A stretch of DNA of 64,000 bases from Ostreococcus lucimarinus (Eukaryota), in NCBI GenBank assembly GCA_000092065.1, contig CP000581.1. One strand, given 5' to 3'. Position numbers and translations under genes: made by a program. Under the pieces are notes generated by a model. The model was not told the origin of the DNA. It did no database searches and saw only the letters and a list, made by a program, of their open reading frames with translations. This document shows positions 1,862 to 48,604 of the stretch, one piece after another (the first letter of the stretch is position 1; each line of letters starts with the position of its first letter).

Positions 1862-3387
1862 TTATTTAGAGCTACCTACGTTCCAAAATCTCAGCTGTCC
1901 GTCGTCGCCGCCGCTGCACAGCCGTTCGCCTCCGTGGTAATCCACGGCGAAGTTTTTCCCGTCGTGCGACGAAACGCTGTGCAGTGGCACTCTACCACGA
2001 ATATCCCATAACTTGACTTTTCCGTCGTATCCACTACTCACGATGTGATGCTCGTTTGTTGGACTCCATCGAACGCACGACACCCACCCCTGCGTTTCAA
2101 ATCGCGCGCGTCAGTCAATCGGCGAAACAATTCATTCCGCGAAACAAATTTTTGCGCGCCGCTCGCAAAGTCTCAGTAAAAAATTAGAGTGATTGATTGT
2201 GCCCTCACGCACGAGTGTCGGGAATCAAAAGTGTGTTCATCACTGACTTTGCGAACGGGCGCGAGCGCGAGCGAGAGTACACATGACGACAAACTTACCT
2301 CGTGAGATTTGAGCTTCAGGCACGCCTTTGCCGACGCCGACTCTCGCGGATCCCACACGTTAACCAGGCGGTCGCTCCCCCCGAAAGCGAACCTACTTCC
2401 TCCCCTCGAGACATCCAAGGTATGGACTGAACTGTTCGTATGATGAGACTCCTTCTCTTCGCCAGTCTCCACGTCCCACGCTCGGATCGTATTATCGTAT
2501 GCGCCGGTCCAAAGTACTTGCGGGCTTTCCCAGGAAACCGCTCGCACTTGATCCGTGTGCCCACGCAACACGAGCTCCTCGCCGAGACCAATTTTCGCGC
2601 TCGCATCGTCGACCATCGCGTCGTCGTCTGTAGCCTCCGATTTCTTCGATGTTCTGCGCTTCTTCGTTACCTTTTCGTTCGCCGACTCGCCACCGTCGAT
2701 TTTCCACACTCGCGCCGTGCAGTCGACGGAACACGAGGCGAACAGTCGAGCGCCGTACGCGCTCGCGACGTCCGTCACAGTGCCCTCGTGACCCTTGAAA
2801 ACACGCTGCTCCCCGAGTTCACACTTTTTCCCAGTCAGCGTCACCGCATACGATCGCAAGGTGTGATCCGCCGAAGCCGCTAACACCACACACGCGTTTT
2901 CTGCGTCCGCGCCGGCGCTCGGCGGCGCCAAGCTCACCGAGCACACGCGCTCTTCCGCGCCTTCCAACTCGCACAGCAACTTACCCACGGGTGACCACAA
3001 CCGTGCTTTACCGTCGAAGGACCCCGTGACGACCGCTTTCGCCCAACTTCCATCGATCGAGCTCACCCACGCCTCGCATTTCGTCGTCTCAGCCGCCGTC
3101 GGCGGTCCCAGCGCCGGCACGTACTCCACCACCAGCGTCGCCTCCGCGCTCTTCCCGAGCCTCAGCGCCAACTTCGCCAGCGACGTGCGCAAAAGCGTTC
3201 CATCGATGAGGAAATCAAACGGCGTCGGCGTCGTCGCGCCGAGCAGGTGATTCACCACCTCGCTCAAGCCGTACCTCGTCAGCCGGCCCGGCACCTCGAT
3301 CGCGCTCTCACTCACGCGAAACTCCTCGGGCAGGCGCGTGACGAAGCTCACCGCGATCTCGACATCGCTCGCGTCCTCGTTCGACAT
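1862..3387 (-). CDS. WDR12: Ribosome biogenesis protein WDR12/Ytm1 homolog. Two exons: complement(2299..3387) and complement(1862..2089); intron ~2090..2298 (GTAAGT...CAG)
   Basis: N-terminal NLE/ubiquitin-like domain (MSNEDASDVEIAVSFVTRLPEEFRV...LSEVVNHLL) followed by WD40 repeats. The C-terminal WD repeat (GWVSCVRWSPTNEHHIVSSGYDGKVKLWDIR...) is a separate 73-aa ORF in the track. The two parts join in phase 0 through a GAG|GTAAGT donor and a CAG acceptor, giving ~438 aa like WDR12. The ATG at 3387..3385 was checked. The upper intron edge is +/-1 nt. Confidence 0.85.
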
Positions 3388-3756
3388 CGCCCTCGCGGTT
3401 TCCCGCGCGCCGTCGCGCGTCGTCGACGACTTCGCGTCGGCGAGCGCCGGCGGCTGCGCTTTTTCGTCGTCGCCCGAGGGCGCCTCACGTCGCGCGCGGG
3501 CGTTCGATCGCTCGTCACGCCCCGCTCGCGCGCGCGCCGATACCGTCGCTCGCGCTCGAAGTCGCGCCGCGCGTCTTTCGGCGCGTCGCCGGCCGCGCGC
3601 GTCGCCGAATGGCGACGCCGCGCTGTCCCCTTGGACGGTCGTTGCGGGCATTCGCCGCATACGCGCGCGCGCGCACCGTCCGTCGCGCGCGCACGAGCCG
3701 CGCAACGCGCGCAAAGTCGCGTGCGACGTCGCGCGCGCGCACACCGCGCGCGAGCG

Positions 3757-6700
3757 ATGTTCATCGCGCGGCGTCGGTCGTCGAACGAGGGCACCGTCCC
3801 GGGCGGAGCGGCGAACGCGGCGCCGTCGATCGTGCCCACGGGCGCGCGCGATGACGCGAGCGCGACGTCGCGCGCGGCAGAGCGGCGCGGTAGTGATCTC
3901 GCGTCGGGCGATGGTGGCGCGGAGCGGGCGGGAGGGACGAGCGGGACGGTGAACGCCGTCGTGGGATCGCAACCCGCGCGCGAACGCGCGGGCGCGACGT
4001 CGACGAGCGTGGCGAGGAAAAGGAGTTTCAATCGCTCGCGCACGGCGAAGGAGGACACGTTGAACGCGCTGCTCGAAAAACTGTGTGCGATCGATGTCGT
4101 GGATGAGGACTCGAGGGGATCGATGGAAGACGACGGGGCGCTGCGGGAACGCGTGGAGACGGAGGCGCGAAGCGCGAACCCGGCAGACTTTCTCAAGTTT
4201 AGAAACGCGGTACACGAACGTGTGGATACGATGATCACGGGCGAGGACGTAGCGAGAAAGCTCGGGGGACTGCGCGCGATTGATCAGCTCATCGAGGTGG
4301 AGTTTGGCGAGGAGGTCGAAAAGGTGAAGAAGTTTGCAGATTACTTGCTCGACGTCGTGAGCACGAGTGCGGAGGACTTGCTCGGATCGTCGTTGACGGA
4401 TGAACACAGAGAGCACCCTGTGGCGATTAATGATCCACTTTGGAGTAATGCGCGCGCGCGCGAACTCGTGGAGATGATGAGCCTGGTCTTAGGTCGATTG
4501 GTTTTGCACAGCGGGGCGTTGACGACTGAAATCGTCGACTCGCACGTGCAGCGTGCCATCGAGTTGTTGAACGCGGACGACGGGAATCAAGACGTGGTGA
4601 GCATGAAGCACTACGCCGCAGCTCTGACGCTGACCGAACTCGCGCGCAATGCGCCTACGATCTTCAACGTCCACGTACCAATTTTTATCTCGTCCATCTG
4701 GACCGCTTTGCGCGATCCATCTTTGAGAGTGCGCGAAGTCGCTGTCTTGGCGCTTCGCGAGTGTCTGATGGTGACGGAGCGCCGAGAGACGAGATATCGC
4801 GTGCAGTGGTACTACGCGTTGTACGAAGCCTGTCGAGCAGGATTGAAGCAAACTTCGAAAGTAGAAGAGATACACGGTTCATTGTTGGTGTTCGGCGAAT
4901 TACTGAGACACACTGGCGAGTTCATGTTGAGTCGCTATCGCGAAGTGGCGTTGACGATTTTGCGGCTTCAAGATTTTAAGAAGTCAATCATACGACGAAC
5001 GATCGTGAGTTTGATTCCCAAGTTAGCAGCATTTAGTCCACAGCGCTTCGCGGAGTCGTACCTGGTCGAGTCGTGTGCGTTGATCCTCACGACGATTCGC
5101 TCGCCGAACGATAGCGGCGCCGGCTTTCAAGCGCTCAGTCACCTCGCCGACGCAATGTCGTCAGTGATAGACGTTGATTCAGATGAAGTCACAGTTGGCA
5201 GCTCTTTACTGAGGTACTTGCCGGAAGTGAGTGCGGTAATGTACGACATGTTTACGTCTCGAGCAAGAGGACCGAACGCGTATCCAGAGGCGCTCGAGTG
5301 CGCCGGGGCTTTGATGAATTCGCTCCACTTAGCGTGGAAGCCGCATTTCGTAAACTTGTTGATGCCTATGTTCACCGCGGGGTTGTCCAAGTCGCTCGTC
5401 ATAGGGCTTGAATCTGCAGCCCAAGGTGCACCGGATCTGTTGCCGTCTATCCAATTGAAACTGGCAGACGCTATTGCGAGCGCGATTCATCAGGAACCGA
5501 CGACGGAGAAGAGCTGCCCGATGCCACCGAACAAAAAGATCGTGCAACTGGCGCTCAAAACGATGCGAACTTTCCCGTTCGAACCGACAGTGTTACTTCG
5601 ATCGATTCGCAAAAATGTCATTTGCTACCTGGACGATTCGTCAGCTGAGTCACGACTCGAAGCGGCGCTGACGTGTTGCAGCGCGTTGCGCCTCAGAGTG
5701 GGATCGAGCAAGAGCGTGACGACCGCGGTGGAGAACATCATGGAAGCGCTCATTCCAGTGGCGGTCGGCGACAACGATGCATCGATCAGAAATGCGCTGT
5801 TGACTGAATTTTGCAGGCCGAGCGCATCGATAGATTCGTACCTATCGCAGGCAAAATCTCTCAGGGCGTTGTTTTTGACAGTGAACGACGAGAGTGTTGC
5901 CATACGCATGTTAGGTATTGAGCTGCTTGGACGCTTGGCGACGAGGAATCCGGCGTACGTCCTTCCAGCACTACGTGTGCACATGCTGCAGCTTTTAGCT
6001 GAGCTCGAATATAGTAGCGAATCCCTGCATAGAGAGGAGAGTGCCAAGGTGATGGCGGTGATGATTCGCAGTTGTCCGCGGCTCGTCTCGCCGTATCTCT
6101 CCCCTATCTTGCGTTGCCTCATGTCTACGTTGAAGGCGGAAGAAGGCGGAGCGGCGAAGAGCTCGAAATCAAAACAAGACTCATCAGCACCGTCGAGCGC
6201 ATCTGTGGGAACTGCCGCGACCACGTTGCGACGAACATCATCATCCAAACAGACGTCGGCCATTGCGCCGTCGAAAAAACACGATATCACTGGCCGCGAA
6301 AAGGCAGCAGTACTTGGCACGATCGGCGAGCTTGCAAATGTTAGTGGATATGGCATCACGCCATTTGTTCAAGAGCTTCTCATTCTTCTATTGATAGCGC
6401 TGAAATCGGCAAGCACTCGCGACCATGCCGTCGTGACTCTCGGCAAGCTCATCGAGAGCTCGGGATACGTCGCTGAGCCGTTCACGACGCACCCGCAGCT
6501 TTTGCCACAGTTGCTCCGAATGCTGGCAAACGAACGCGGTATTGTCAGGAGCGAAGTACTGCGGACCCTGGGAATTCTTGGTGCGCTCGATCCGCATGCG
6601 CACAGAGGAAATGAAATTCGTTTGCACGGAGAGGGTGTACTAAGCGAAGAGGGCGTGCGCGGTGTGCGACAAGCGAGACTGAGTATGAAGATCGACGATG

Positions 6701-9700
6701 GCGCGACGGACAGCGCGCAGGTCGATGATTTAGGCAATAATGATGACGGTGACGAAGAGCTGGATATACTACCGATGCTTCATTTGACGTCGCTATCCGA
6801 TGACTATTACCCGACGATAGCGCTGAATTCGTTACTTCGTGTGCTGCGAGATCCTTCGCGCACGAGCGTTCGTCACATGGTGGTGCGAAGCATCGTGTAC
6901 ATTTTCCAAGTCCTCGACACGGCTTGTGTTCAATATTTACCTAGCGTCGTCCCAGTCATGCTGAGTGTGATTCGAACGAGTGATGATAGCCTGCGTGAAG
7001 GAATGTTTGTGGAGCTCGCTACTCTGGTGGGTGTCATCAAGGCACATATTCGCCGATACTTGTCGGACATCTTCGAGCTGATGAATATTGCATGGGATAG
7101 AAGCGGGATGTCCAAAAATACGCTGCTTTTGTGCGAAGAGCTTTCCGTCGCTTTGAACGACGAGTTCAGAAGGAGTTTACCCATGATTGTTCCTCGCATA
7201 GTTTCGTCGCTCGCAGAGGCTGAGCGCTTGCGCAGGTACGATTCAGTACCGTATATTCTTCACGCCTTGGAGACGTTCGGAACTTCGCTCAACGATCACC
7301 TCTACTTGATACTTCCGACGCTTGTGCGCATTTTTAAACCAAGCGTTTTGGATATGCCGCTTGACATCAAAAGAGGCGCTCTGCAGTCTCTGCGCAGACT
7401 GCTACCGCGCATGCGCTTGGCGGACCAGGCTGGGATTGTCGTTCACGCGTTGACGAGAGTATTGGACGTGGAGGACGTAGAGCTTCGTTTAGATGTACTA
7501 AACGTGCTCATATCGTTGGAGGTGTCTCTTGGGCGCGAATATGCGCTCTTCTTGCCCGTCGTAAAGCGTGCTGTTTCAAAGTGCGGCGTCAAGGATCCGG
7601 CGTTTGACGACATGGTCAAGCGAGTCGAAAGTGGTAATCCGCTACTCTTCGATGACCTTGAATCTGAATCGCTATTAATCGCGTCAGCCACGGAACATAG
7701 AAAACCTGTGCTTCAAAAGCATCTTTCAGTGAACCAACTTGCCGTTCGCCGCGCTTGGGAGAGCAGTCAGCGGTCTACCAAGGAAGATTGGCTAGAATGG
7801 ATGCGAAAACTTGCGTTGGATCTGTTGAAGAGCTCACCACTGCCGTCGCTACGAGCGTGCAGTGAGTTAGCGCAAGTGCAGCCGAATCTTGCTAGGGATC
7901 TATTTTGCGCTTCGTTTGTTTCGTGCTGGGCCGAGCTGAATGAAAGCCATCGAGAGATTCTAGTGCGCTCGCTGGAAGCCGCTCTCGGAAGCCCGACCAT
8001 TCCTCCTGAGATCGTCTCAGTTTTGCTCAATCTCTGCGAGTTCATGGAACACGATGAAAAGCCAATTCCAGTTGACGTGCGGACGTTGGGTATGATTGCT
8101 GAACGCTCCAGAGCTTACGCCAAAGCTTTGCACTACAAAGAACTTGAGTTCATAACGAACCCAGGTGCGTGCGTCGCAGCCATCATCGCCATCAACAACC
8201 AGTTGCAACTTCCCGAGGCGGCTCGAGGTGTGCTCGTGTACGCGCAAGAAAACTTGACGGTCGACATCAAAGAGTCGTGGTACGAGAAACTTGAACAATG
8301 GGACGATGCTTTGGAAGCGTATAAAAGAAAACTGGACGAGCTCGCCAGCGTGGATTCACCTCAAGCGATGGAAGAAAGACGTGAAGCGATGGTGGGGCAG
8401 CTTCGATGCTTGAACGCACTCGCGGAGTGGGAAGAAATTCAGAGAATCTACGAAGCTGGGAATCAAGCAAACGTCGATTGGGACGAGTATCGCAACGATG
8501 TTACTACGATTGCCGCGAAAGCTGCTTGGCATCTTGGAGATTGGGAGCAGATGGAGATTTGTACGAATCAACTTGATAGAGATCAAAATATCCGGGGTCG
8601 TCTCCCAAACGCCGACCGTGTCGATGCGATCGGCAAGCGTACGTCCAGCGTAGTGAACACTACTGATTGTGACTTTTACAAGTCCATTCTCGCCATCCGT
8701 CGAGGCGCACAGGACGAGGCGCGGGAGCATCTTGCCGCCGCGCGCGAGATGCTCGGCACGGAACTCGCGGCTCTCGTGAGAGAGTCTTACGACCGTTCTT
8801 ACGGAGCGCTCATACGAGCGCAACAGCTAACTGAGCTGGATGAAGTGATTGAATACGCGCAACTGACTGCGGTCGCTTCACCCGCGGCTGCGCGGCGACA
8901 AGAGATCATTCGAAAAATGTGGCGCGATCGAATCTACTTGGTCAAGCGTGACGTCGAGGTCTGGCAAGAGCTCTTGCAAGTTCGCTCATTGGTGTTGCCC
9001 ATGAGCGAAGAAACTGATATATGGCTTAAGTTTGCCTCTCTGAACCGCAAACAAGGGCGCGACCGTCAATCACGTCGAACGTTGTTGCGCCTCCTTGAGT
9101 ATGACCCAATCATGTGTGCCGAGGGCAAGCCAGGATTCGGCGCGGGTTCTGGGCGCCCTAAAGTCATGTTTGCGTTCGTGAAGCACTTGTGGCACACAGG
9201 ACAGAAAAGGCAAGCTTTTATGCGTCTTCAATCTCTCGCACACGAGTTGCGAGTGCAATTGGAAAACATGCGCGCTTCTGGTCAGACAGAGACGGATCAC
9301 AACAAGACGGTCTCGCGAGCTTTTCTCAAACTCGGCAAATGGCGCTGGGCGCTCACCGATAGTATGAACGATGAAACACTGACTGATGTGCTCATGGCGT
9401 TCAGAACCGCGACATCTGCGGACCAGCATTGGTCCAAGGCGTGGCATCACTGGGCATTGTTCAACGCCACGGCCATGGAACATTTCCATCGCCAAGGTGG
9501 TGCGTCAACAAAGGATGCGATGCAGCACGTCGCGCCAGCAATCAGTGGATTTTTCCGATCAATCTCTTTGGCAGGCTCATCCATGAAAGCCAAGGGTGGA
9601 TCACTGCAGGACATTCTACGCCTGCTCACACTTTGGTTCAATCACGGTGGCTCGCCCGAAGTCGAAACGGCCTTGATCGCTGGGTTTGGACACGTAAACA

Positions 9701-39851: not shown

Positions 39852-41657
39852 TTACTTGTAGAAACGCCGGAGCGCCTTTGACGTGCCTTCGGGCGCGTAC
39901 GGCGCCGAAGAAGCGGCGCCTGCCGTCGATCCGGGCGCGGCGACGCCACCGCGCTTTTCGGTGATACCAGCTTCGCGCAAACGCTTCGCTTCCATCTTTG
40001 CCAATTTCTTGTCGTCGATGACGTTCAACTGCTTCTTTCTATACCTCTTTGACGTCCTATTCTTGCCCTTCATCTTCGTCTTTTCTTCATTCTTGTCGCG
40101 CTGAGCCTTTCTCGACGACAGCTCAGCCTCGATCGCTTGCTGACGACGCTCAGCTTGTACCTCCTTCGGCACTGCTCGAAGCTTACCGACAGCATCGGGG
40201 TCGAGCTGAATAGTTTCCGAAGGAAGTTTATCGAGCAAACGCGCGACTTCTTGCTCGCGGCGCTGGCCCTTCGTCTCGTACGGGTTCGCCACAAACGTGT
40301 CAAAGTTCGGTTCACCAGCACCTGGAATGAGTAAACTCGTGAATCCACGCGTGTGTCCGACACCTAAAACATCGTCGTACGGGCAAAACTTCATGGAGTT
40401 GATTTTTTGTCCGTGGGAAAACTGGTGCTTCATGTACGGCGAATTTTGCTTCGTCGAGAGTGCGTCCTTCCAGATTTGCACCGTGCTCCCCCAACCAACG
40501 GCGAGCATGCCGCGCTGGGAGATTTGAATGTGATCTGACGGCTGCGCCGAGTAGTACGCGTGTACGGGCATGTACGTGCGCAAATCCCAAACCTTGACTT
40601 GTCCGTCTGATCCCGAAGTCACCATGTACTTACCCCCGTTGTCAATCGCCACTCCTCGCACGGTGCCTCGATGACATAACATCTTCACCAGTGATGTGCC
40701 TTGATTCGGGCTCCACAAAGTCACAGTTCCGTTTTTATGGCCGCAATGCACGACGGCGTTATAATTGCTGTGCGTCATCGCGTTACACTCGCCGAGTTTG
40801 GTGCGATACTGCGCCACAATTTTCCCGTACGTCGTGTCTTGCCAGCGCAAAATCCCTTGATTCCCAATCGAACATAGCAAAAAGTGCTTCGGTAAAAATG
40901 TGAGCTTATTGACATGCATATGATCGTTCAAGCAGTGAACCTCCAGGCCTCGCTTATCGTAAATGTACGTGTACTTGTCTTGCGCCGCGGCGTAAAACTG
41001 TTCGTTGTGCAAAAACTTGACATCTTTCACCGTTTCACGCGCATCCGTCTCGCTAATCATATAATGACGCTGCCACTCCATCATGCTTAGCGCGCCCTCG
41101 CTCGAACCTAACAACAACTCTCGTCCGTTTTGCGAATAATCGACGTAGTACCGTCCCGTTCCCGGCACGTCCAAATCAAACGCCTTCTTCGCGGCGTTCA
41201 CATCCACATTATTCACGATATCCCGCTGTTGATACTGATACGTCCTCTCGCCCTCATCCGCCTCGAGCACTCCCGGTTCTTCGCTCGCCAACCACTTCTC
41301 GTGCGTCGCCGCCGCCGTCGCCGCCTCGTCGGCCAAATTTTGACTCTCTCGCAGCGTCGCGCGCACCTTCTTATCGCTCACGTGCTTGCTCGACACCCGC
41401 TCGCCGACGCGATACTTTTTCGCGCGCTCGCGAAGGTCTTTATCGTACTTTTTCTGTCGGCGCGCCACCGCCTCGGCGTTCATCGCGTCGTCCTCGCGTC
41501 GTCCCGTCGTCGCACCGCCGCCGCCGCCATCATCCTTCGCGCCTCCCACTCGCGCCTCCCGTTCGTACGCCGCCGTCGACGCGTTCAGCGCCGCGAACGT
41601 CGCGTCGAGCGCGGCGTCGCCGTCGGCGTCGTCGTCGTCGCGTCGTCGTCGTCCCAT
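39852..41657 (-). CDS. U3 snoRNP protein UTP7/WDR46 (BING4)
   Basis: WD40 repeats plus the BING4 C-terminal domain (FCPYDDVLGVGHTRGFTSLLIPGAGEPNFDTFVANPYETKGQRRE), then a basic tail. Confidence 0.85.
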   Translation of the reverse strand: MGRRRRDDDDADGDAALDATFAALNASTAAYEREARVGGAKDDGGGGGATTGRREDDAMNAEAVARRQKKYDKDLRERAKKYRVGERVSSKHVSDKKVRATLRESQNLADEAATAAATHEKWLASEEPGVLEADEGERTYQYQQRDIVNNVDVNAAKKAFDLDVPGTGRYYVDYSQNGRELLLGSSEGALSMMEWQRHYMISETDARETVKDVKFLHNEQFYAAAQDKYTYIYDKRGLEVHCLNDHMHVNKLTFLPKHFLLCSIGNQGILRWQDTTYGKIVAQYRTKLGECNAMTHSNYNAVVHCGHKNGTVTLWSPNQGTSLVKMLCHRGTVRGVAIDNGGKYMVTSGSDGQVKVWDLRTYMPVHAYYSAQPSDHIQISQRGMLAVGWGSTVQIWKDALSTKQNSPYMKHQFSHGQKINSMKFCPYDDVLGVGHTRGFTSLLIPGAGEPNFDTFVANPYETKGQRREQEVARLLDKLPSETIQLDPDAVGKLRAVPKEVQAERRQQAIEAELSSRKAQRDKNEEKTKMKGKNRTSKRYRKKQLNVIDDKKLAKMEAKRLREAGITEKRGGVAAPGSTAGAASSAPYAPEGTSKALRRFYK

Positions 41658-41752
41658 CGCTCGCGTCGCGGCGTCGAGTTGTCCCGTCCCGCCCGGGACG
41701 CGCGCGCGTCACACCGCGCCGCCGCATCGCGACGACGCGACGACGCGACGCC

Positions 41753-41998
41753 ATGGCGCACGAACAGAACCCCGAGGCGGTGATGCACCAAGTCAAAGCC
41801 GAGCTCGCGAACGCGTACGCGCAGGAGTTCTTCACGACGGTTCGGGACAAGTGCTTTCAAAAGTGCGTCACCAAACCGGGCGGGTCGATGTCGAGCGGCG
41901 AAGCGACGTGCCTGTCGAGGTGCACGGACAGGTACGTCGAGGCGACGAAGATGATTTCGCACGTCGTGTTGCAAGCGTACTCCAAGGGTGGGGTGTGA
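41753..41998 (+). CDS. Small Tim (Tim13/Tim8-like) mitochondrial intermembrane-space chaperone
   Basis: 81 aa with a twin CX3C motif (CFQKC ... CLSRC) in the usual spacing. Confidence 0.8.
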   Translation: MAHEQNPEAVMHQVKAELANAYAQEFFTTVRDKCFQKCVTKPGGSMSSGEATCLSRCTDRYVEATKMISHVVLQAYSKGGV

Positions 41999-42156
41999 TC
42001 GATCGCGAGGCGGTGAACGGCGAGAGCGGGAGGAGGGGTCGCCGGGAGGCGCGAGAGGCGGATCGGCGCGCGAAGATGATTGTAATAAGTAATCGATGCG
42101 TAGAATTGAAAGAATCGGTTAATGTTGTCAATGCGTGATGGTGTCGTGCGTCGCGC

Positions 42157-45100
42157 TCACGCGTTGTCGGACTCGGACTCCGCGAGGATGGCGGATTTGT
42201 CTAATCGCGTCGAGCTGTCGTACGCGGGATTGATTTTCGGAAGCGACGAACCGCTGTTGCTCCAATCTTCCAAAAACCACGCACTGCCGCCGCGGACGGT
42301 CAGCTCGGAGGGTTCGACGGGAATTTTGGACATCGACGAGAGGTCATGGGAACTCAAGCCACGCGAGAGCATGGCGCGAACCATTTCGGCGTGCGCGCTG
42401 GATTGCACCAAGACACGCCCGTCGTCGACCGAGCTAAGTTCGTCGGCGTTCAATTTGACCGGTGAGGACGAATTGGATAGCTTCGTCGGACTATGTTTCG
42501 CGAGCGCATTGAAAACGTGCTTATGTCGCTCGTGCAGCGCATCTAAGCCGTTGAGAATGCTCAAATCTATCGACAGCGAGTCACCATCCAAGCCCGTGAG
42601 TCGCCTCGCGAGCTCGAGTTGCGTCAACGGCTCAAGCGCGTCGTTTTCTCGAGCGGCTTCCTCGAGCAAATCAGCTGAACACCACGCGAGTTCGACATCA
42701 CTACTGTCGTGATCACCGTCGAGCGATGTTCGCTTGACACCAGCGTTTTTCGCCCGTAGTTGTCGGTTGATGTACTGAAGAATACGATGCACCTCCATCG
42801 GCGTGGCGACGACGCTAAGCATGTCAGTGACGTGCTTTTGATACGCCATTCTTCTGCTTTGCTCGTCCAAATTATCGATTACGTTCAAGGGTTCGCCTTT
42901 GGCGATGCTACCTTTCTCCATCGCGAGGTCCAGTTCCCAGCTATTGCCTTTGTACACAGACACATCTTCCTCTTCATGATCGCGCTGTTCGACTTCCTGA
43001 GATGCCGTGCTCGCGCGAGTTAACTCGATGTGAAGGCTTAACGCGTCACTGAAACTCGTTGGAATCGCCAATCGTTTCGCTGGTCGCACTTTATTTGGGC
43101 TCGTAAACACGTTATTGTTCGTAAACGAGGCACCGAGCCAATCGTCCGCTGCCTTGAGAATACTACCGCAGCTCGGTCGACGGGTCGGATCCATGACGAG
43201 TGCCGCTTTGATGAGCTTGATGAAATGCTTTGGCACAGTATCAGGGAACGTTGGAGACAATCCTTGCTGAAGCGCACGCCACTGACCCTCAACAGCGGTG
43301 CCTGAAGGATAACCCTTGAGTAATACCATAAGAAGCACACCGACAGACCATACGTCGCACTTCTTCGTGTATGGCTTGCGCCGAAGCACTTCCGGCGCGC
43401 TAAAGAATTTCGTCCCAACGTGTCCTTTCATAGTTTCGTGCGCCAAGCAGAACGTCGCGCTGCCGAAGTCGATTATTTTCAAAGTCGGAATAGCGCCTGG
43501 TTTGGGTGACCACGGCTCTTTGAGCATGATATTGTCGGGCTTCAAGTCTCTGTGCGCGACGCCCAACGAGTGCATGAACGACACTGCCCCGAGTAGTTGG
43601 TTGGCGAATACGCACCAATCACCCTCATCAAAAAGACCGCGTTGCGCGATGGCCTGTATTAATGTTCCACCAGTGTAAATATCGGTCACGATATGAGTCA
43701 CTTCGCTCTTCAATAACGGACTGTCTTCGTACACCATTAACTTCAACGGAAAGTTTGGATGATGCCCACATAATACTTGCAATGCATCGCACTCGTCTTT
43801 GATGGCATTCTCGTCGACTTTCGTGCGCAAAATCGACTTGACAGCCAAGATATCGCCCGTCTTCCGATCGACTGCCCGTCTCACCGAGCCGTAAATACCG
43901 CGGCCGATGAGATCTCCCACTTCCAAGTCGTCGTACACCTTCTTTGACGCAAAGTTTCCGAAATTTCGTCCTTGGTGCACAGTCACGTCTGGACAATCCG
44001 CGTTGGCTTCCTCGATCTCCAACAACTGCTCCCTCGTGAGAGGCTCTCGCTTTTTCTCAGTTCGCGTGTACGAGTAAACTTCGCCGATCACGGGCTCGAT
44101 CACCCTGAGTCGTTCCTCCAACTCGCCGAGCGACGGAATGTCTACGCAGATGGCGGTGATGTCGTCGTGAATCCCGCGAACTTTCAGAACCTTTTCAACG
44201 ATGCCATCCGCGCACGTGTCGGACCCCATGTATTCCATGCACTCGCGCGCGATTTCGCCATCCTTCAAAGCGGAAAAAACCCCGTCCGAGGCGATTAACA
44301 GTCGACATCCCGCGGCTGGGATGCGCACGCGCGTGAACTCTGGTTCGCAGATGAGTGCCGCGCAGTCGAAGTCTCCAAAGGCTCTCGAAACGGCGTAGCC
44401 ACCAGGAAACACGCGCAACGGCCCCAACTCTTCGCCCGCGTTGCCTCGCAGGCGCGCCAGCCTGCACTCGGTCTGAATCAAACGCCTAGCCTCAAACGGA
44501 TCCACCGGGTTGTGATCGCGCGACAGCCGCACGTGCTTGTCTCGATCCTCCGCCGAGATCGCTCCAAACTCCGAGGGATGCGGCAGCATCAGCGCCGCCG
44601 AGTCCCCGACGTTCGCCGTCACCGCGTCGAACGCCAACGCATCATCCCCTCGCCCGCTCACCACGCGCTGTATCGCCACCACGTTCACCGTCGACCCCCC
44701 CTCGGGCGCGGGTCCGTGACAAAAGAAACATCCCGTCGCGTTGCTCATCCCGTACTCGCTCTCCGTCCGCAAAATCGCCCGTCGCATCGCTCGCTCGACC
44801 GTGTCCTCGCCGTCCTCGCCGTTTCCCTCCCGACCGCGCGCCTCCTCGCCCGATCGCGTCCTCGCCTCGAGCATCCGAAACTCGTGCTCCAAGTTTCGTC
44901 CCAAGTGTCGCTCCAGGTACGCCGTCGCCGTGTCGTCCTTGTGCCCGTCGAACACGCAGTACACCGCGCACACGCGCCCGACCGCGACGCGCGCGTCGGT
45001 ATCATCGCGCTCCGTCGCGCACCACGCGTCGACGAGATTCGGGAACACCAGGTAGCCGTCCTGCGCCTTTTTCACGACGCATCGCGCGCGCCAGGGCGCG

Positions 45101-45165
45101 AACGGCGATGGCGCGCACGACGGCGACGAATGCGGCGCCGACGACGGCGCGTCGCGCGCGCGCAT
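42157..45165 (-). CDS. Fusion protein: N-terminal PP2C phosphatase domain + Ser/Thr protein kinase domain + ~400 aa C-terminal region of unknown function
   Basis: PP2C motifs AVYCVFDGHKDD, VANVGDSAAL, SRAFGDF, IASDGVFSAL, HDDITAICVDI. Kinase motifs IGRGIYGSVRRAVDRKTGDILAVK (Gly loop/VAIK), HRDLKPDNIML, KIIDFGSA (DFG), GTKFFSAPE (APE), DVWSVGVLL. It is one continuous ORF. The upstream Arg-rich part of track ORF 42157..45978 is discarded; the proposed ATG is at 45165..45163 (MRARDAPSS...). Confidence 0.8.
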   Translation of the reverse strand: MRARDAPSSAPHSSPSCAPSPFAPWRARCVVKKAQDGYLVFPNLVDAWCATERDDTDARVAVGRVCAVYCVFDGHKDDTATAYLERHLGRNLEHEFRMLEARTRSGEEARGREGNGEDGEDTVERAMRRAILRTESEYGMSNATGCFFCHGPAPEGGSTVNVVAIQRVVSGRGDDALAFDAVTANVGDSAALMLPHPSEFGAISAEDRDKHVRLSRDHNPVDPFEARRLIQTECRLARLRGNAGEELGPLRVFPGGYAVSRAFGDFDCAALICEPEFTRVRIPAAGCRLLIASDGVFSALKDGEIARECMEYMGSDTCADGIVEKVLKVRGIHDDITAICVDIPSLGELEERLRVIEPVIGEVYSYTRTEKKREPLTREQLLEIEEANADCPDVTVHQGRNFGNFASKKVYDDLEVGDLIGRGIYGSVRRAVDRKTGDILAVKSILRTKVDENAIKDECDALQVLCGHHPNFPLKLMVYEDSPLLKSEVTHIVTDIYTGGTLIQAIAQRGLFDEGDWCVFANQLLGAVSFMHSLGVAHRDLKPDNIMLKEPWSPKPGAIPTLKIIDFGSATFCLAHETMKGHVGTKFFSAPEVLRRKPYTKKCDVWSVGVLLMVLLKGYPSGTAVEGQWRALQQGLSPTFPDTVPKHFIKLIKAALVMDPTRRPSCGSILKAADDWLGASFTNNNVFTSPNKVRPAKRLAIPTSFSDALSLHIELTRASTASQEVEQRDHEEEDVSVYKGNSWELDLAMEKGSIAKGEPLNVIDNLDEQSRRMAYQKHVTDMLSVVATPMEVHRILQYINRQLRAKNAGVKRTSLDGDHDSSDVELAWCSADLLEEAARENDALEPLTQLELARRLTGLDGDSLSIDLSILNGLDALHERHKHVFNALAKHSPTKLSNSSSPVKLNADELSSVDDGRVLVQSSAHAEMVRAMLSRGLSSHDLSSMSKIPVEPSELTVRGGSAWFLEDWSNSGSSLPKINPAYDSSTRLDKSAILAESESDNA

Positions 45166-45350
45166 GGCGCGACGACGCTCGGTGCGATGATGTCTCTTCG
45201 CGCGCGCGACGACGGCGCGCGGCGACGCGCGCGGGCGCGGGACTCGCGTCGCGACGCTTCGGATTGTGCGCGAGGTCGACACCGACGCGACGGTCCGAGT
45301 GCCGCGATCGAGCCGCGCGGGACGGAGCGCGAGACGCGGAAGAGAGGACG

Positions 45351-46736
45351 CTAAGGATCGATTAAAAAGGAAGGGAGACCGGTCGCGACGTCCTCGCGAA
45401 GAGATTCGAGGAAAACGCGGTCGGTGAGGGCGAAGGCGTGGGCGAAGGGCCAGGTGGGGACGGAGACGACGGCGGCGAAGCCGCGCGCGACGGCGTCGAG
45501 GTCGCCGCGAGGCGAGTCGTCGGCGACGACGACGCCCTTGGTGACGCGGAACGCGGAGGAAAGCGGACGCGCGTCGGACGACGTCGATGATGATGGTGAT
45601 GGTTGCGACGACGCGCGCGCGGCGAGGAGCCTCTCGGTGGCGAGCTGTCGGACGAATCGAGCGTCGCGGTCCGTCGCTCGGACGTCCGAGGCGACGGTTT
45701 GCGACGGCAGCGTTCGACCGAAGCGGTCGGTGGGGACGGAATCCACGGGGACTTCGTCGTCGAACACGGCCTGGACGCGCTGCTGGCGCCAAAACACGCC
45801 GGGACGGGCGGCGCGGAACTTTGACTTCGGCGTCCATTTCGCCGGAACGCTCAAATCCAAGTAAATGTCCGCCTCCACGAACGCGTCTCTTAGCGCCGCG
45901 CGTCGCGACTGTGGAGTCGTGTGTTCGACGGCGGTGTCGTTGACGTGAACCGTGCCCGAGCCGCCGAGCGACCAACAATCTTTGGCGGCGAAATCATCGC
46001 CACCGTCATCTAAAACTTGCCTCGCCAGCTCGTCGTCCATCGGCAACTGCGCCGTGCCGAGGCTCGCCCACCGCCCGTTCGTCGGAAACGGAAAATGTGA
46101 GCGAGGATTGTTCGCGGGCGACTTCGTCGGCAGCACTCGCAGGACGACACTCACGAGTTGCTCGAGCGCGCACGCGCACGGCTCGAACGACGTCGTCTGC
46201 GTCGTCGTCGGGATCGTCGCGCACACGGTGGGCGTTCCCGAGACGGCGGCGCGATTGGCGCATCGTCGAGCGCGACTCCCGCGCCCATCCTCACCCAAGC
46301 ACACCTCGCGCCCGCCCACGACCAGGCAGAGGACGCATTCGTATCCTAGTTGCGCCAAAATACCGTCCGTCGCGTCCAGCGCGACGACGGCGGCGTCCTC
46401 GCCGGAGCCGCGAAGCGCGTACGCGTCGCCGTCGCCGCGCGCCAACCGCAGCTCGCGCCCATCGCGCGTCAACCCATCCACGTCGTCGTGCGACAGCGTA
46501 AAGACGCGCAAATTGTGCGCGGCGGCGACGTCCGCGAGCTTCAGCGCGCACGCAGCGAGATCGTCGTCGCGCGGGCCGAGCAAGAGCACGCAGGCCTGGG
46601 TGCGTGTCGGAACAGACGACGACGTCGACGCGCGCGACGAGGACGACGAACGGCGACACGAGGACGACGAGTGACGGCGATGGTGCGCGGCGAAGGAATG
46701 CGCGCGCGCGGCTGCGCGCGCGGCCGCGCGCGGCAT
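45351..46736 (-). CDS. Hypothetical protein (461 aa), family not recognised
   Basis: Long ORF with normal amino-acid composition and codon use (VLLLGPRDDDLAACALKLADVAAAHNLRVFTLSHDDVDGL...). No motif I can assign. Arg-rich ORFs on the opposite strand are rejected. Confidence 0.4.
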   Translation of the reverse strand: MPRAAARAAARAHSFAAHHRRHSSSSCRRSSSSSRASTSSSVPTRTQACVLLLGPRDDDLAACALKLADVAAAHNLRVFTLSHDDVDGLTRDGRELRLARGDGDAYALRGSGEDAAVVALDATDGILAQLGYECVLCLVVGGREVCLGEDGRGSRARRCANRAAVSGTPTVCATIPTTTQTTSFEPCACALEQLVSVVLRVLPTKSPANNPRSHFPFPTNGRWASLGTAQLPMDDELARQVLDDGGDDFAAKDCWSLGGSGTVHVNDTAVEHTTPQSRRAALRDAFVEADIYLDLSVPAKWTPKSKFRAARPGVFWRQQRVQAVFDDEVPVDSVPTDRFGRTLPSQTVASDVRATDRDARFVRQLATERLLAARASSQPSPSSSTSSDARPLSSAFRVTKGVVVADDSPRGDLDAVARGFAAVVSVPTWPFAHAFALTDRVFLESLREDVATGLPSFLIDP

Positions 46737-46782
46737 GTTGTGACGAGAAACAAGAACAAGAAATTACAAGACACCGGGACGC

Positions 46783-48369
46783 TCACGCGCCCATGTACAA
46801 TTTTTGTCGGCGAGTGACGACGATGCGGCAGACGGGACAGCGACGCATGCGGCGAGCGCACTTGCGGCACATGCACGCGTGACCGCAGGGAATTAAGACG
46901 CACTGCACGGGTAAGGTCATGCATACGACGCACTCGCTGTCGGGGACGCCGCTGCGGCGCTTGGACTTTGTGACGACGGGTTCGCCGGTTTCGTCTTCCG
47001 AGACTTCGATGGAGGAAGACGGAGGAATTTCGCCGGTGTCTTCGCGGTCATCGCTATCGTTGGAGTGTGCGGCGGTGGGATCGGTGAGTTCCGAGGTGGC
47101 GTCCTCGTTCGTCGCCGGCGGTTGCTCACCGTCGCCGGCGCCGTCCTCGTCGTCAGACGTGCTCAAATCGCTCGCCTCTTCCCACTCATCCATCACGGTG
47201 TTGTCTTCGCGTTGACGTAACAATGGTTCGTGCATCATCAACCGCTGCGCCCGGATTAAGTTGACCTGTTCCACGTGCCGGCAAAGAATGGCGCGAATGC
47301 AACATCCGAGTAAGACGCCGCTCAACATCACGGCGTATTGCCACGTCTCGCCGTACATCCCGGCCGCGCCGTCGTCGACATCACCGCACGCGTCGCCCAT
47401 CCACCCGATGTGACACTCGCAGTGACCGTCGATGACGCAGTCCCCGTGACCGTTACAGTGATTCAAATGCGAGCACCCGTCGCTCAACGGTTGCGGCGCG
47501 GCGTCTCGTCGCACGCACGCCTTGCAGCATCGCAACGGCGTCGAGGGCACGAGCATTGGCGAGCCGAGGGCGCCCATCGCGGATATCACTGACTCAAACC
47601 CACTCACCGCCGCCCCGTTCGTGCCGACAGCCTCGGGCGTGTTCGTTTGCCCGCACGAAACATCGAACCCTTCCTCCGCCGCGCACTCGCACTCGTTCGT
47701 CCCGAGAGCGTTTCCGCTCGGCAACACAAACTTGACCTTGCAGCACTCGCCTTGGTCTTTGGGATAATAAAACGCCGACCCCCGCGTCGTCTGTGCCTTA
47801 TTCACCCGATTGAAGCCTTGCAAGAATGTCCCCGCCGGGCACACCATGTCCTGTCCCGAAGGCGTGCTCGCCCGCGTGGGCACGCAGTCCACGCTCAGCG
47901 CTCTCAAACTCTCGATCGTCGCCTCTCCGTCCGCCGCGTCCGTCACCGCCGGAAACACATCTCGAACCTTTGTCTTACCGTCCAAATCGCTCGAGCTCAG
48001 GCACGGGACGCAGCATATCGCTCGAGATAGCGGCACCAACCCGTCGCCGCGCCCGTCCCGGCCGGCGTACTCGCCGCTCGCCTCGAAACCGCCCACGACG
48101 GCGCCCTCGCGATCGCACTCGAGCCCGTTTGCCGCGGTCGAAAACGTGCACTGACACAGGCCGAGCGTCCGGAGCGTCGCCGGCGGCTCGGTCGCCGCAT
48201 ACGCGCGCGAAGAAGGCGAAATTTCAGTCGATGACGCGACGCGTTCGACGCGCCTCGTGACGGTGAAACCGCCATCGTCGACGTCCGACGGCGCCACACG
48301 CGCGTGCGAGGCGACGAAACATATCGCGATGCACGAGATGAGAAGCGCGCGGCGCGCGATGGCGCGCAT
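46783..48369 (-). CDS. Type I transmembrane RING (C3HC4) E3 ubiquitin ligase with a Cys-rich / EGF-like ectodomain
   Basis: Signal peptide MRAIARRALLISCIAICFVASHA, an ectodomain with many Cys including an EGF-like CNGHGDCVIDGHCECHIGWMGDACG, a TM helix YAVMLSGVLLGCCIRAILC, an acidic linker and a C-terminal RING CVVCMTLPVQCVLIPCGHACMCRKCARRMRRCPVCR. Confidence 0.7.
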   Translation of the reverse strand: MRAIARRALLISCIAICFVASHARVAPSDVDDGGFTVTRRVERVASSTEISPSSRAYAATEPPATLRTLGLCQCTFSTAANGLECDREGAVVGGFEASGEYAGRDGRGDGLVPLSRAICCVPCLSSSDLDGKTKVRDVFPAVTDAADGEATIESLRALSVDCVPTRASTPSGQDMVCPAGTFLQGFNRVNKAQTTRGSAFYYPKDQGECCKVKFVLPSGNALGTNECECAAEEGFDVSCGQTNTPEAVGTNGAAVSGFESVISAMGALGSPMLVPSTPLRCCKACVRRDAAPQPLSDGCSHLNHCNGHGDCVIDGHCECHIGWMGDACGDVDDGAAGMYGETWQYAVMLSGVLLGCCIRAILCRHVEQVNLIRAQRLMMHEPLLRQREDNTVMDEWEEASDLSTSDDEDGAGDGEQPPATNEDATSELTDPTAAHSNDSDDREDTGEIPPSSSIEVSEDETGEPVVTKSKRRSGVPDSECVVCMTLPVQCVLIPCGHACMCRKCARRMRRCPVCRIVVTRRQKLYMGA

Positions 48370-48604
48370 GGCGGCGCGTCGCGCGCGATAATGCCGACCA
48401 ACCGCCGCGCGGGGCGAAGTCGAAGCCGCGCCGCGAAACGAAAATCCACGACGAGACGAACGCGCGCGCCCGAAACCGAAACTAAACGACGAAACGATCG
48501 AACACGAGCGCATCGCTCGACGCGCGACGCTCAAACGGCGCTCTTGACGCTCGATTAAATTCTACCCTAGCGCGCGAAGCCGCGCGGTCGCGCCTCCGCG
48601 CCCT

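What the first reader, a model, noticed from the sequence alone, without database searches (positions are those of the whole stretch)
42157..45165. Single-gene fusion of a PP2C phosphatase domain and a Ser/Thr kinase domain
A complete PP2C catalytic domain (FDGH...SRAFGDF...ASDGVFSAL...DDITAICVDI) is followed in the same ORF by a complete CAMK-like kinase domain (GRGIYGSV...VAVK, HRDLKPDN, DFG, APE) and then ~400 aa of unknown sequence. An opposing phosphatase and kinase in one polypeptide is uncommon. Plants have a kinase-then-PP2C gene, as far as I recall At2g40860. Here the order is reversed. This suggests a self-resetting signalling module.
Basis: partly seen in the sequence, partly recalled or inferred. 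Interest (0 to 1): 0.55.

Follow-up and report, generated by a model that had tools for sequence, protein, structure and literature searches.

The report
PP2C phosphatase–kinase fusion gene, Ostreococcus
One intron-free gene of the tiny green alga Ostreococcus really does encode a protein phosphatase, a protein kinase and a conserved regulatory tail in a single chain, but this fusion is already listed in protein-domain and kinome surveys of these algae, so only its function is unknown.

Summary
On the minus strand, 45165..42157 is one uninterrupted 1002-codon ORF. It encodes a PP2C/PPM phosphatase domain (aa ~25-345), a 65-aa linker, a CAMK/CDPK-like kinase domain (aa ~411-680) and a 322-aa tail. 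All catalytic residues of both domains are invariant in 19 homologues. Every segment, linker included, is under purifying selection (dN/dS 0.07-0.18). There is no in-frame ATG between aa 313 and 477. Two transcriptome assemblies of relatives carry the whole architecture on one mRNA.

The window is Ostreococcus lucimarinus-like. The O. tauri orthologue appears to be Ot01g05370. A 2014 kinome survey lists it as 'CAMK-like' and 'PP2C fragment', and its phosphoproteome shows Ser phosphorylation in the invariant tail motif R-G-L-S (window S938). PP2C-Pkinase architectures in Ostreococcus and Micromonas were tabulated in 2010. The reverse order is plant VTC3 (At2g40860).

The fusion is therefore real but not new. 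The tail is a family-specific helical module with no assignable fold and is not an EF-hand domain. A 'self-resetting' kinase/phosphatase switch acting on RxxS sites in its own tail is plausible but untested.

The parts
42157..45165 (-). Complete CDS of the PP2C-kinase fusion protein (1002 aa plus stop)
   Evidence: Single ORF, translation without internal stop. The exact protein is present in public assemblies, and 99%-identical cluster members are annotated 'serine/threonine protein kinase/serine/threonine protein phosphatase PrpC'.
44131..45093 (-). PP2C/PPM phosphatase domain, aa ~25-345. Putative metal/catalytic residues are D36 (motif KKxQDG), D73-G74-H75 (DGH), D188 (GDS), D265, D294-G295 and D334-D335.
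   Evidence: Pfam PF00481. A family profile hits solved PP2Cs (PPM1K, HAB1/ABI-type, PPM1A) at E 3e-17 to 2e-10 with these motifs aligned. The residues are invariant in 19 homologues. The AF2 domain is mostly pLDDT 70-90.
43936..44130 (-). Inter-domain linker, aa 346-410, with the invariant motif D393-V-T395-V396 (43975-43989)
   Evidence: Conserved in all 19 homologues. dN/dS is 0.14 against the 85%-identical relative. It has no Met codon.
43126..43935 (-). Ser/Thr protein kinase domain, CAMK/CDPK-like, aa ~411-680. Key residues are G421xG423xxG426, K443, E458, H538-R-D540-L-K542-P-D-N545, D566-F-G568, A590-P-E592, D604 and R663.
   Evidence: Pfam PF00069 E 2.5e-48. The best solved relatives are CDPK and CaMK kinase domains, E 3e-33. 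All listed residues are invariant in 19 homologues. dN/dS is 0.07.
43060..43086 (-). Basic segment R694-P-A-K-R-L-A700-I-P702 about 15 aa after the kinase domain. It is a candidate pseudosubstrate or autoinhibitory junction (inference only).
   Evidence: R694, A696, L699 and P702 are invariant among the 9 Ostreococcus-type orthologues. It resembles basic-x-x-Ala-hydrophobic pseudosubstrates. The AF2 model is not confident here.
42493..42891 (-). Conserved helical core of the tail, aa 759-891
   Evidence: AF2 tail model has pLDDT 83-95 over these residues. It is conserved across the family. It has no Pfam family and no significant structural or sequence match to known folds.
42352..42363 (-). 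Invariant R935-G-L-S938 motif. S938 corresponds to a serine found phosphorylated in vivo in the O. tauri orthologue.
   Evidence: Phosphopeptide GLS(p)SYNLSATEK of Ot01g05370 is in supplementary file 1 of PMC4143559. The peptide matches orthologue P0006 at aa 919-930 exactly, and the motif is invariant in 9 orthologues.
42274..42300 (-). C-terminal motif T956-V-R958-G-G-S961-A-W-F. An R-x-x-S-(A)-W-hydrophobic motif is kept in distant family members.
   Evidence: Invariant in 9 orthologues. Related motifs (RSPSWW, RTDSWL, RRGSAWI, RTASWW) occur in Micromonas- and Bathycoccus-like members.

Best explanation
SHOWN: this is one intron-free nuclear gene of an Ostreococcus lucimarinus-like alga. 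Its protein has three parts. The first is an N-terminal PP2C/PPM phosphatase domain with every metal-binding and catalytic motif kept. The second is a CAMK/CDPK-like Ser/Thr kinase domain with every catalytic residue kept. The third is a conserved, family-specific 322-aa tail. The whole architecture is kept as one ORF across Mamiellophyceae-type sequences and is the apparent orthologue of O. tauri Ot01g05370. The tail of that orthologue is phosphorylated in vivo on the serine of an invariant R-G-L-S motif. INFERRED: both enzymes are active. The basophilic (R at -3) kinase phosphorylates substrates that include RxxS/T sites in its own disordered tail (T857, S938, S961). The tethered PP2C removes those phosphates or phosphates on shared substrates. 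The polypeptide would then behave as a bifunctional switch whose output depends on how the tail and its unknown ligands bias kinase against phosphatase. The basic RPAKRLAIP segment just after the kinase domain may act as a pseudosubstrate. Confidence is about 0.95 for the gene and architecture part and about 0.3 for the mechanism.
For: There is a single ORF with two Pfam domains. Catalytic residues of both domains are invariant in 19 homologues spanning 32-87% identity, and PP2C motifs align to solved PP2Cs. The kinase is closest to CDPK/CaMK structures. dN/dS is 0.07-0.18 in PP2C, linker, kinase and tail. No in-frame ATG lies between aa 313 and 477. MMETSP transcripts P0096 (Micromonas pusilla) and P0256 carry pp2c-linker-kinase-tail on one mRNA ORF. 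The exhaustive search finds the three-part architecture in about 8 clusters at 50% identity. The species assignment rests on the neighbouring Tim13 being identical to O. lucimarinus XP_001415643.1. The O. tauri phosphopeptide maps onto the invariant RGLS motif. Three invariant RxxS/T sites lie in the tail.
Against: There is no enzymatic, genetic or RNA evidence for this species. The PP2C domain is divergent (DGHKD instead of DGHGG, Lys for the motif-1 Arg, Pfam match only to profile positions 36-223), so activity is not guaranteed. The kinase has an invariant Gly at the canonical activation-loop phosphosite (3 residues before the GT of the P+1 loop), so control by activation-loop phosphorylation and dephosphorylation is not supported. 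The kinase responsible for the RGLS phosphorylation is unknown. AF2 gave no confident inter-domain or tail-docking information (pTM 0.43).
Confidence: 0.55

Rival explanations
1. Both domains are active but work on different targets. The fusion would merely co-localise or co-express a phosphatase and a kinase of one pathway (for example the PP2C acting on an upstream kinase), with no auto-reset on the protein's own tail.
For: Both sets of catalytic residues are conserved. There is no conserved Ser/Thr at the canonical activation-loop position (alignment). The plant kinase::PP2C protein VTC3 has no demonstrated intramolecular cycle either.
Against: Three invariant RxxS/T sites matching a CAMK-type consensus sit in the protein's own tail, and one is phosphorylated in vivo in the orthologue. 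Linker length and sequence are conserved, which suggests a fixed geometric relation between the domains.
Confidence: 0.3
2. One domain is a pseudoenzyme. The divergent PP2C domain would serve as a phospho-binding or docking module (as in TAB1), or the kinase would be a scaffold, so the protein has only one activity.
For: The PP2C domain is atypical. Single-sequence matches to solved PP2Cs are weak (E 1e-3). DGHGG is replaced by DGHKD/DGHVN, and the motif-1 Arg is Lys. TAB1 pseudophosphatase appears among the weak profile hits.
Against: All acidic metal ligands and the His of DGH are invariant over a family that has otherwise diverged to about 32% identity. Pseudoenzymes normally lose these residues. 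The kinase keeps every catalytic residue.
Confidence: 0.12
3. Artefact: two adjacent genes or transcripts read as one ORF, with a hidden intron, an internal start or an assembly join between the PP2C and kinase parts.
For: No RNA data exist for this exact locus. The O. tauri survey labelled the orthologue only as 'PP2C fragment'.
Against: The frame is continuous. The linker has dN/dS 0.14 and an invariant DVTV motif. No ATG lies between aa 313 and 477. The same fused ORF occurs in hundreds of independent contigs and in two transcriptome assemblies of relatives.
Confidence: 0.02
4. It is a domain-permuted orthologue of plant VTC3 (At2g40860) and shares its role in controlling the ascorbate pool.
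For: Both combine a Ser/Thr kinase and a PP2C domain, and VTC3 is reported as conserved in land plants and algae.
Against: The domain order is opposite. None of the best 150 representatives of an exhaustive search has a kinase-then-PP2C order. The kinase is CDPK/CaMK-like and carries a family-specific tail. Outside the family the PP2C domain scores no better than generic PP2Cs.
Confidence: 0.03

Closest known systems
Ostreococcus tauri Ot01g05370 (XP_003074601.1, Q01FP2; 'calcium-dependent protein kinase, putative')
   Same: It is the apparent orthologue. Its phosphopeptide GLSSYNLSATEK matches P0006, a 986-aa protein 60% identical to the window protein over 95% of its length with the same PP2C-kinase-tail layout. 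PMC4143559 lists it as CAMK-like, describes it as PEPKR-like in the text, and lists it as 'PP2C fragment'.
   Different: It is from another species. The published survey did not recognise a complete PP2C domain or discuss the fusion. That P0006 is Ot01g05370 rests on the peptide match, not on the full sequence.
O. tauri 'PP2C-K' proteins Ot03g04580 and Ot12g00410 ('PP2C with kinase domain', PMC4143559), and the Pfam architecture PP2C-Pkinase tabulated for Ostreococcus and Micromonas (PMC2939887)
   Same: They have a PP2C and a protein kinase domain in one polypeptide in the same genus, with the kinase C-terminal.
   Different: Ot03g04580 starts with a region that looks like a short-chain dehydrogenase (my reading of the sequence, not tested) and has a different kinase domain (HRDIKPANVFV...), so it is a different gene.
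Arabidopsis VTC3 (At2g40860), a kinase::PP2C protein needed for light-induced ascorbate accumulation
   Same: It has a Ser/Thr kinase and a PP2C domain in one chain in the green lineage. Mutations in either domain give the phenotype.
   Different: It has the opposite domain order and no comparable tail, and it is reported to be in the chloroplast. It is not among the nearest relatives found. This is probably an independent fusion.
Bacterial PP2C-STYK composite kinases (Pseudomonas spp.; PMC1262709)
   Same: They have a PP2C-like domain tethered N-terminally to a Hanks-type kinase domain.
   Different: They are bacterial and not detectably closer in sequence than any PP2C or kinase. They have no tail.
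CDPK, CDPK-related and PEP-carboxylase-kinase-related kinases (CDPK-SnRK superfamily)
   Same: The kinase domain is most similar to CDPK and CaMK catalytic domains. It is followed by a basic junction and a helical C-terminal module, as in the kinase-junction-CaM-like-domain layout. CDPK activation domains are the top Foldseek hits for the tail, though not significant.
   Different: No EF-hands are present: no Pfam hit, hhalign probability 0.5% against calmodulin, and the loop residues are neither conserved nor Ca-binding. CDPKs have no PP2C domain.

Membership tests
PPM/PP2C protein phosphatases (PF00481) | Profile match above the curated threshold | tested here: met
   59.2 bits against a cut-off of 20.3. 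The family profile hits solved PP2Cs at E 3e-17.
PPM/PP2C protein phosphatases (PF00481) | Conserved acidic metal ligands and the DGH motif. The PPM1A equivalents D38, D60/G61/H62, D239 and D282 are numbered from my own knowledge. | tested here: met
   D36, D73-G74-H75, D294-G295 and D334-D335 are invariant in 19 sequences. DGH, GDS, DG and D[DN] motifs align to PPM1K. The equivalence of D36 rests on motif position and on HAB1-type alignments that start at profile position 14.
PPM/PP2C protein phosphatases (PF00481) | Metal-dependent phosphoserine/threonine phosphatase activity | not testable with these tools
   Needs an enzyme assay.
Eukaryotic protein kinases (PF00069), CAMK group | Profile match and all catalytic motifs (GxGxxG, VAIK Lys, alphaC Glu, HRDxKxxN, DFG, APE) | tested here: met
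   165 bits. All residues are invariant.
Eukaryotic protein kinases (PF00069), CAMK group | Grouping with CAMK/CDPK-SnRK kinases in a phylogeny | tested here: inconclusive
   The best solved relatives are all CDPK, CaMK or SnRK2, and the O. tauri orthologue is classed CAMK-like/PEPKR in PMC4143559. No tree was built here.
Calcium-dependent protein kinases (CDPK) | C-terminal calmodulin-like domain with EF-hands | tested here: not met
VTC3-type kinase::PP2C proteins (At2g40860) | Kinase domain N-terminal, PP2C domain C-terminal | tested here: not met
   The order here is PP2C then kinase.
VTC3-type kinase::PP2C proteins (At2g40860) | Orthology (closest relatives share the VTC3 layout) | tested here: not met
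   No kinase-then-PP2C protein is among the best 150 representatives. A direct comparison with the VTC3 sequence was not done.
Mamiellophyceae PP2C-kinase-tail family (O. tauri Ot01g05370 group) | Collinear PP2C, DVTV linker, CAMK-like kinase and conserved tail with RGLS and RxxS(A)W motifs | tested here: met
   Full-length alignments at 55-87% identity, and about 32-34% to Micromonas-type members. Own HMMs detect all four segments. Conserved neighbours (RING/EGF gene, Tim13, BING4/Utp7) are found in relatives.

The most novel reading that the evidence does not exclude
The protein is a self-contained one-polypeptide phospho-timer. Its CAMK-like kinase would autophosphorylate the invariant RxxS/T sites of its own tail (S938 is phosphorylated in vivo in O. 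tauri). The tethered PP2C would erase these marks in cis. The family-specific helical tail domain, a fold with no known relatives, would bind an unknown signal that sets the balance. This would give Mamiellophyceae, which have very small kinomes, a compact pulse-generating or set-point module.
Probability: 0.15. Interest if true: 0.6.

Novelty: new member of a known kind. Interest (0 to 1): 0.3.

Why it matters
Kinase/phosphatase fusions are natural experiments in 'paradoxical' bifunctional signalling. Ostreococcus is a genetically tractable minimal eukaryote with about 130 kinases. This work adds three points to the existing catalogue entries. First, the orthologue annotated as 'CDPK, putative' / 'PP2C fragment' carries a complete PP2C domain that looks catalytically intact. 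Second, the fusion plus a novel tail is conserved throughout the Mamiellophyceae-type sequences found. Third, a published phosphosite falls on an invariant RGLS motif of that tail, which gives concrete mutants to test. It does not reveal a new kind of system.

Tried and rejected

3. Foldseek against AFDB50 was not available.

4. A profile search with the PP2C part alone and with the tail alone returned only fragments of the same family plus generic PP2Cs (at most 80 bits). No stand-alone close PP2C was found, and the tail was not found in any other architecture.

5. Prasinoderma coloniale PP2C-kinase proteins (P0133, P0196, P0288) score only marginally above generic PP2Cs and kinases against the family HMMs. 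Whether they descend from the same fusion is left open.

6. I first assumed that O. tauri 'PP2C-K' Ot12g00410 was the orthologue. This was replaced by Ot01g05370 after the phosphopeptide match.

7. The upstream in-frame extension to 45978 was rejected as coding on GC3 and on overlap with the neighbouring ORF.

8. No second copy of this family exists in the window.
Full report
**1. What is there**

The finding's coordinates hold one open reading frame on the minus strand. The mechanical ORF runs 45978..42157. The first ATG is at 45165, and translation of 45165..42157 gives 1002 residues and a terminal stop.

The in-frame extension upstream of 45165 has GC3 of 0.60. The frame used by the neighbouring 461-codon ORF (45351..46736) has 0.78, and that ORF's stop lies 186 nt upstream of the ATG. 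The 1002-aa model is therefore the sensible one, and gene callers produced the same model on hundreds of public contigs.

Pfam finds PP2C (PF00481, aa 68-307, 59 bits, cut-off 20.3) and Pkinase (PF00069, aa 415-671, 165 bits). The gene is on the minus strand. The Lys motif here is LAVK. The uncharacterised tail is about 322 aa rather than about 400.

**2. Are both domains complete and plausibly active?**

Nineteen homologues (87% down to 32% identity) were aligned.

- **PP2C domain.** The invariant residues are D36 (in KKxQDG, or LKxED in Micromonas-type members, which is the motif-1 position), D73-G74-H75 (DGH), D188 (GDS), D265 (SRAxGD), D294-G295 and D334-D335.
- The single sequence matches solved PP2Cs only weakly (PPM1K, E 1e-3). 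A profile of the family matches PPM1K, plant clade-A PP2Cs and PPM1A at E 3e-17 to 2e-10, with those motifs in register.
- The Pfam alignment is partial because the domain has lineage-specific insertions and a divergent N-terminal motif, not because it is truncated.
- **Kinase domain.** G421/G423/G426, K443, E458, H538-R-D540, K542, N545, D566-F-G568, A590-P-E592, D604 and R663 are all invariant.
- Its nearest solved relatives are CDPK and CaMK catalytic domains (E 3e-33 and below).
- The position three residues before the GT of the P+1 loop is the canonical activation-loop phosphosite in PKA, CaMKI and AMPK (my own knowledge). Here it is an invariant Gly (G581), so classical activation-loop control is not indicated.

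**3. One gene or two?**

- No stop interrupts the frame.
- The only Met codons near the junction are at aa 313 and 477, so no AUG could start a kinase-only product between the domains.
- Against the locus of the 85%-identical relative (L005), Nei-Gojobori dN/dS is 0.17 (PP2C), 0.14 (linker), 0.07 (kinase), 0.18 (tail core) and 0.09 (C-terminal region). The linker is therefore translated in this frame and constrained.
- The linker holds an invariant D-V-T-V motif.
- My HMMs for the four segments find the collinear pp2c-linker-kinase-tail layout in two transcriptome-derived ORFs, MMETSP Micromonas pusilla A0A7S0I7J6 (P0096) and the complete transcript P0256.
- RNA evidence for this very species was not available.

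**4. Organism and orthologues**

The adjacent 81-aa Tim13 protein is identical to Ostreococcus lucimarinus CCE9901 XP_001415643.1. The BING4/Utp7 neighbour clusters with XP_001415979.1. The window is therefore O. lucimarinus or a very close strain.

A relative with 64% identity keeps the same neighbours (RING/EGF gene, PP2C-kinase, Tim13, BING4).

An exhaustive HMMER scan of 1.8 billion representatives found the three-part architecture in about eight 50%-identity clusters, all Mamiellophyceae-like. It also found a few PP2C-kinase proteins without the tail, including Prasinoderma coloniale. Those score only slightly above generic PP2Cs and kinases. No kinase-then-PP2C protein is among the best 150.

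**5. What is already known**

- PMC2939887 (2010, Table 2) lists 'PP2C Pkinase / Pkinase PP2C' architectures for O. tauri, two Micromonas strains, Arabidopsis, rice and grapevine.
- The O. tauri kinome paper PMC4143559 lists a 'PP2C-K' class, Ot03g04580 and Ot12g00410.
- The same paper lists Ot01g05370 as 'CAMK-like' and 'PP2C fragment', and describes it as PEPKR-like in the text.
- Its phosphoproteome table holds the peptide GLS(p)SYNLS(p)ATEK for Ot01g05370. That peptide occurs exactly in P0006 (aa 919-930), the 60%-identical full-length orthologue. Ot01g05370 is therefore the apparent O. tauri orthologue, and the protein is expressed and phosphorylated there.
- At2g40860 is VTC3, a kinase-then-PP2C protein needed for light-induced ascorbate accumulation.
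- N-terminal PP2C fused to a Ser/Thr kinase is also described in Pseudomonas.

**6. The tail**

There is no Pfam family. AF2 on a 24-sequence alignment gives a confident helical core at aa 759-891 (pLDDT 83-95) and disorder elsewhere.

| Search | Result |
|---|---|
| Foldseek against PDB | Nothing with E below 0.7. CDPK activation domains head the non-significant list. |
| hhalign against calmodulin | Probability 0.5%. |
| Tail-only profile search | Only fragments of the same family. |

The tail is therefore a family-specific module of unassigned fold.

It carries three invariant basophilic sites: R-R-L-T857, R-G-L-S938 and R-G-G-S961. S938 aligns with the serine phosphorylated in O. tauri. 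The last site is part of an R-x-x-S-(A)-W-hydrophobic motif that is recognisable even in Micromonas- and Bathycoccus-like members.

About 15 residues after the kinase domain lies a conserved basic segment, RPA(K/R)RLAIP. It looks like a pseudosubstrate, but this is inference only.

**7. Most likely mechanism**

Shown: the protein is a single chain with an intact PPM active site, an intact CAMK-like kinase and a conserved, phosphorylated tail.

Inferred: the kinase, with R at -3 preference as in CAMKs, phosphorylates substrates that include its own tail. The tethered PP2C reverses this. The tail and its unknown partners set the balance.

The main rival is that the two activities serve different targets and the fusion only co-localises them. 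A pseudoenzyme reading is disfavoured by the invariant catalytic residues. The two-gene artefact and the permuted-VTC3 readings are essentially excluded by the data above.

**8. Verdict**

The fusion is real, well conserved and probably bifunctional. It is already catalogued in this genus and functionally uncharacterised, so it is a new member of a known kind. Interest is modest at 0.3. The useful additions are three:

- The PP2C domain is recognised as complete.
- The conserved tail is defined.
- A published phosphosite is linked to an invariant motif.

Noticed in passing
window 45351..46736 (-): A 461-codon ORF with no Pfam family sits between the RING/EGF gene (46783..48534 -) and the PP2C-kinase gene. 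GC3 of 0.80 in its frame supports coding, and the exact protein is called on more than 400 public contigs as 'hypothetical protein'. It has no homologue at the syntenic position, or anywhere in the 15-kb loci, of the 64%-identity relative, where that intergenic gap is only about 330 bp. It looks like a lineage-specific gene.
   Followed up: partly
window 43975..43989 (-) and 42274..42300 (-): A similar short motif occurs twice in the protein: D-V-T-V-H-x-G in the PP2C-kinase linker and E-L-T-V-R-G-G in the C-terminal tail. Both are invariant among orthologues (Micromonas-type members have D-V-T-V-R-R-G in the linker). It could be a repeated docking or phospho-acceptor element. This is unexplained.
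   Followed up: no
L005 (contig of P0002, 85% identical) 3204..9143: Downstream of the closest distinct orthologue the neighbours differ from the window. There is a 1003-aa ORF without Pfam hits and a UCH ubiquitin hydrolase instead of Tim13 and BING4. Synteny is therefore broken in that lineage although it is kept in the more distant 64% relative.
   Followed up: no
window 39852..48534 versus L001-L004: The PP2C-kinase evolves faster than its neighbours. It is 64% identical, against 86% (BING4/Utp7), 89% (Tim13) and about 70% (RING/EGF protein) for the same pair of genomes.
   Followed up: partly
window, whole length: GC content alternates between about 0.53 and 0.68 in 2-kb bins across the window. 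Within the fusion gene GC3 falls from 0.92 (N-terminus) and 0.79 (PP2C) to 0.60 (kinase).
   Followed up: no
window 43630..43560 approx. (aa 546-565, -): The kinase domain has an insertion of about 8 residues between HRDLKPDN and DFG (PWSPKPGAIP), with invariant W552 and P560. It is a family-specific feature of the beta7-beta8 region of unknown role.
   Followed up: no
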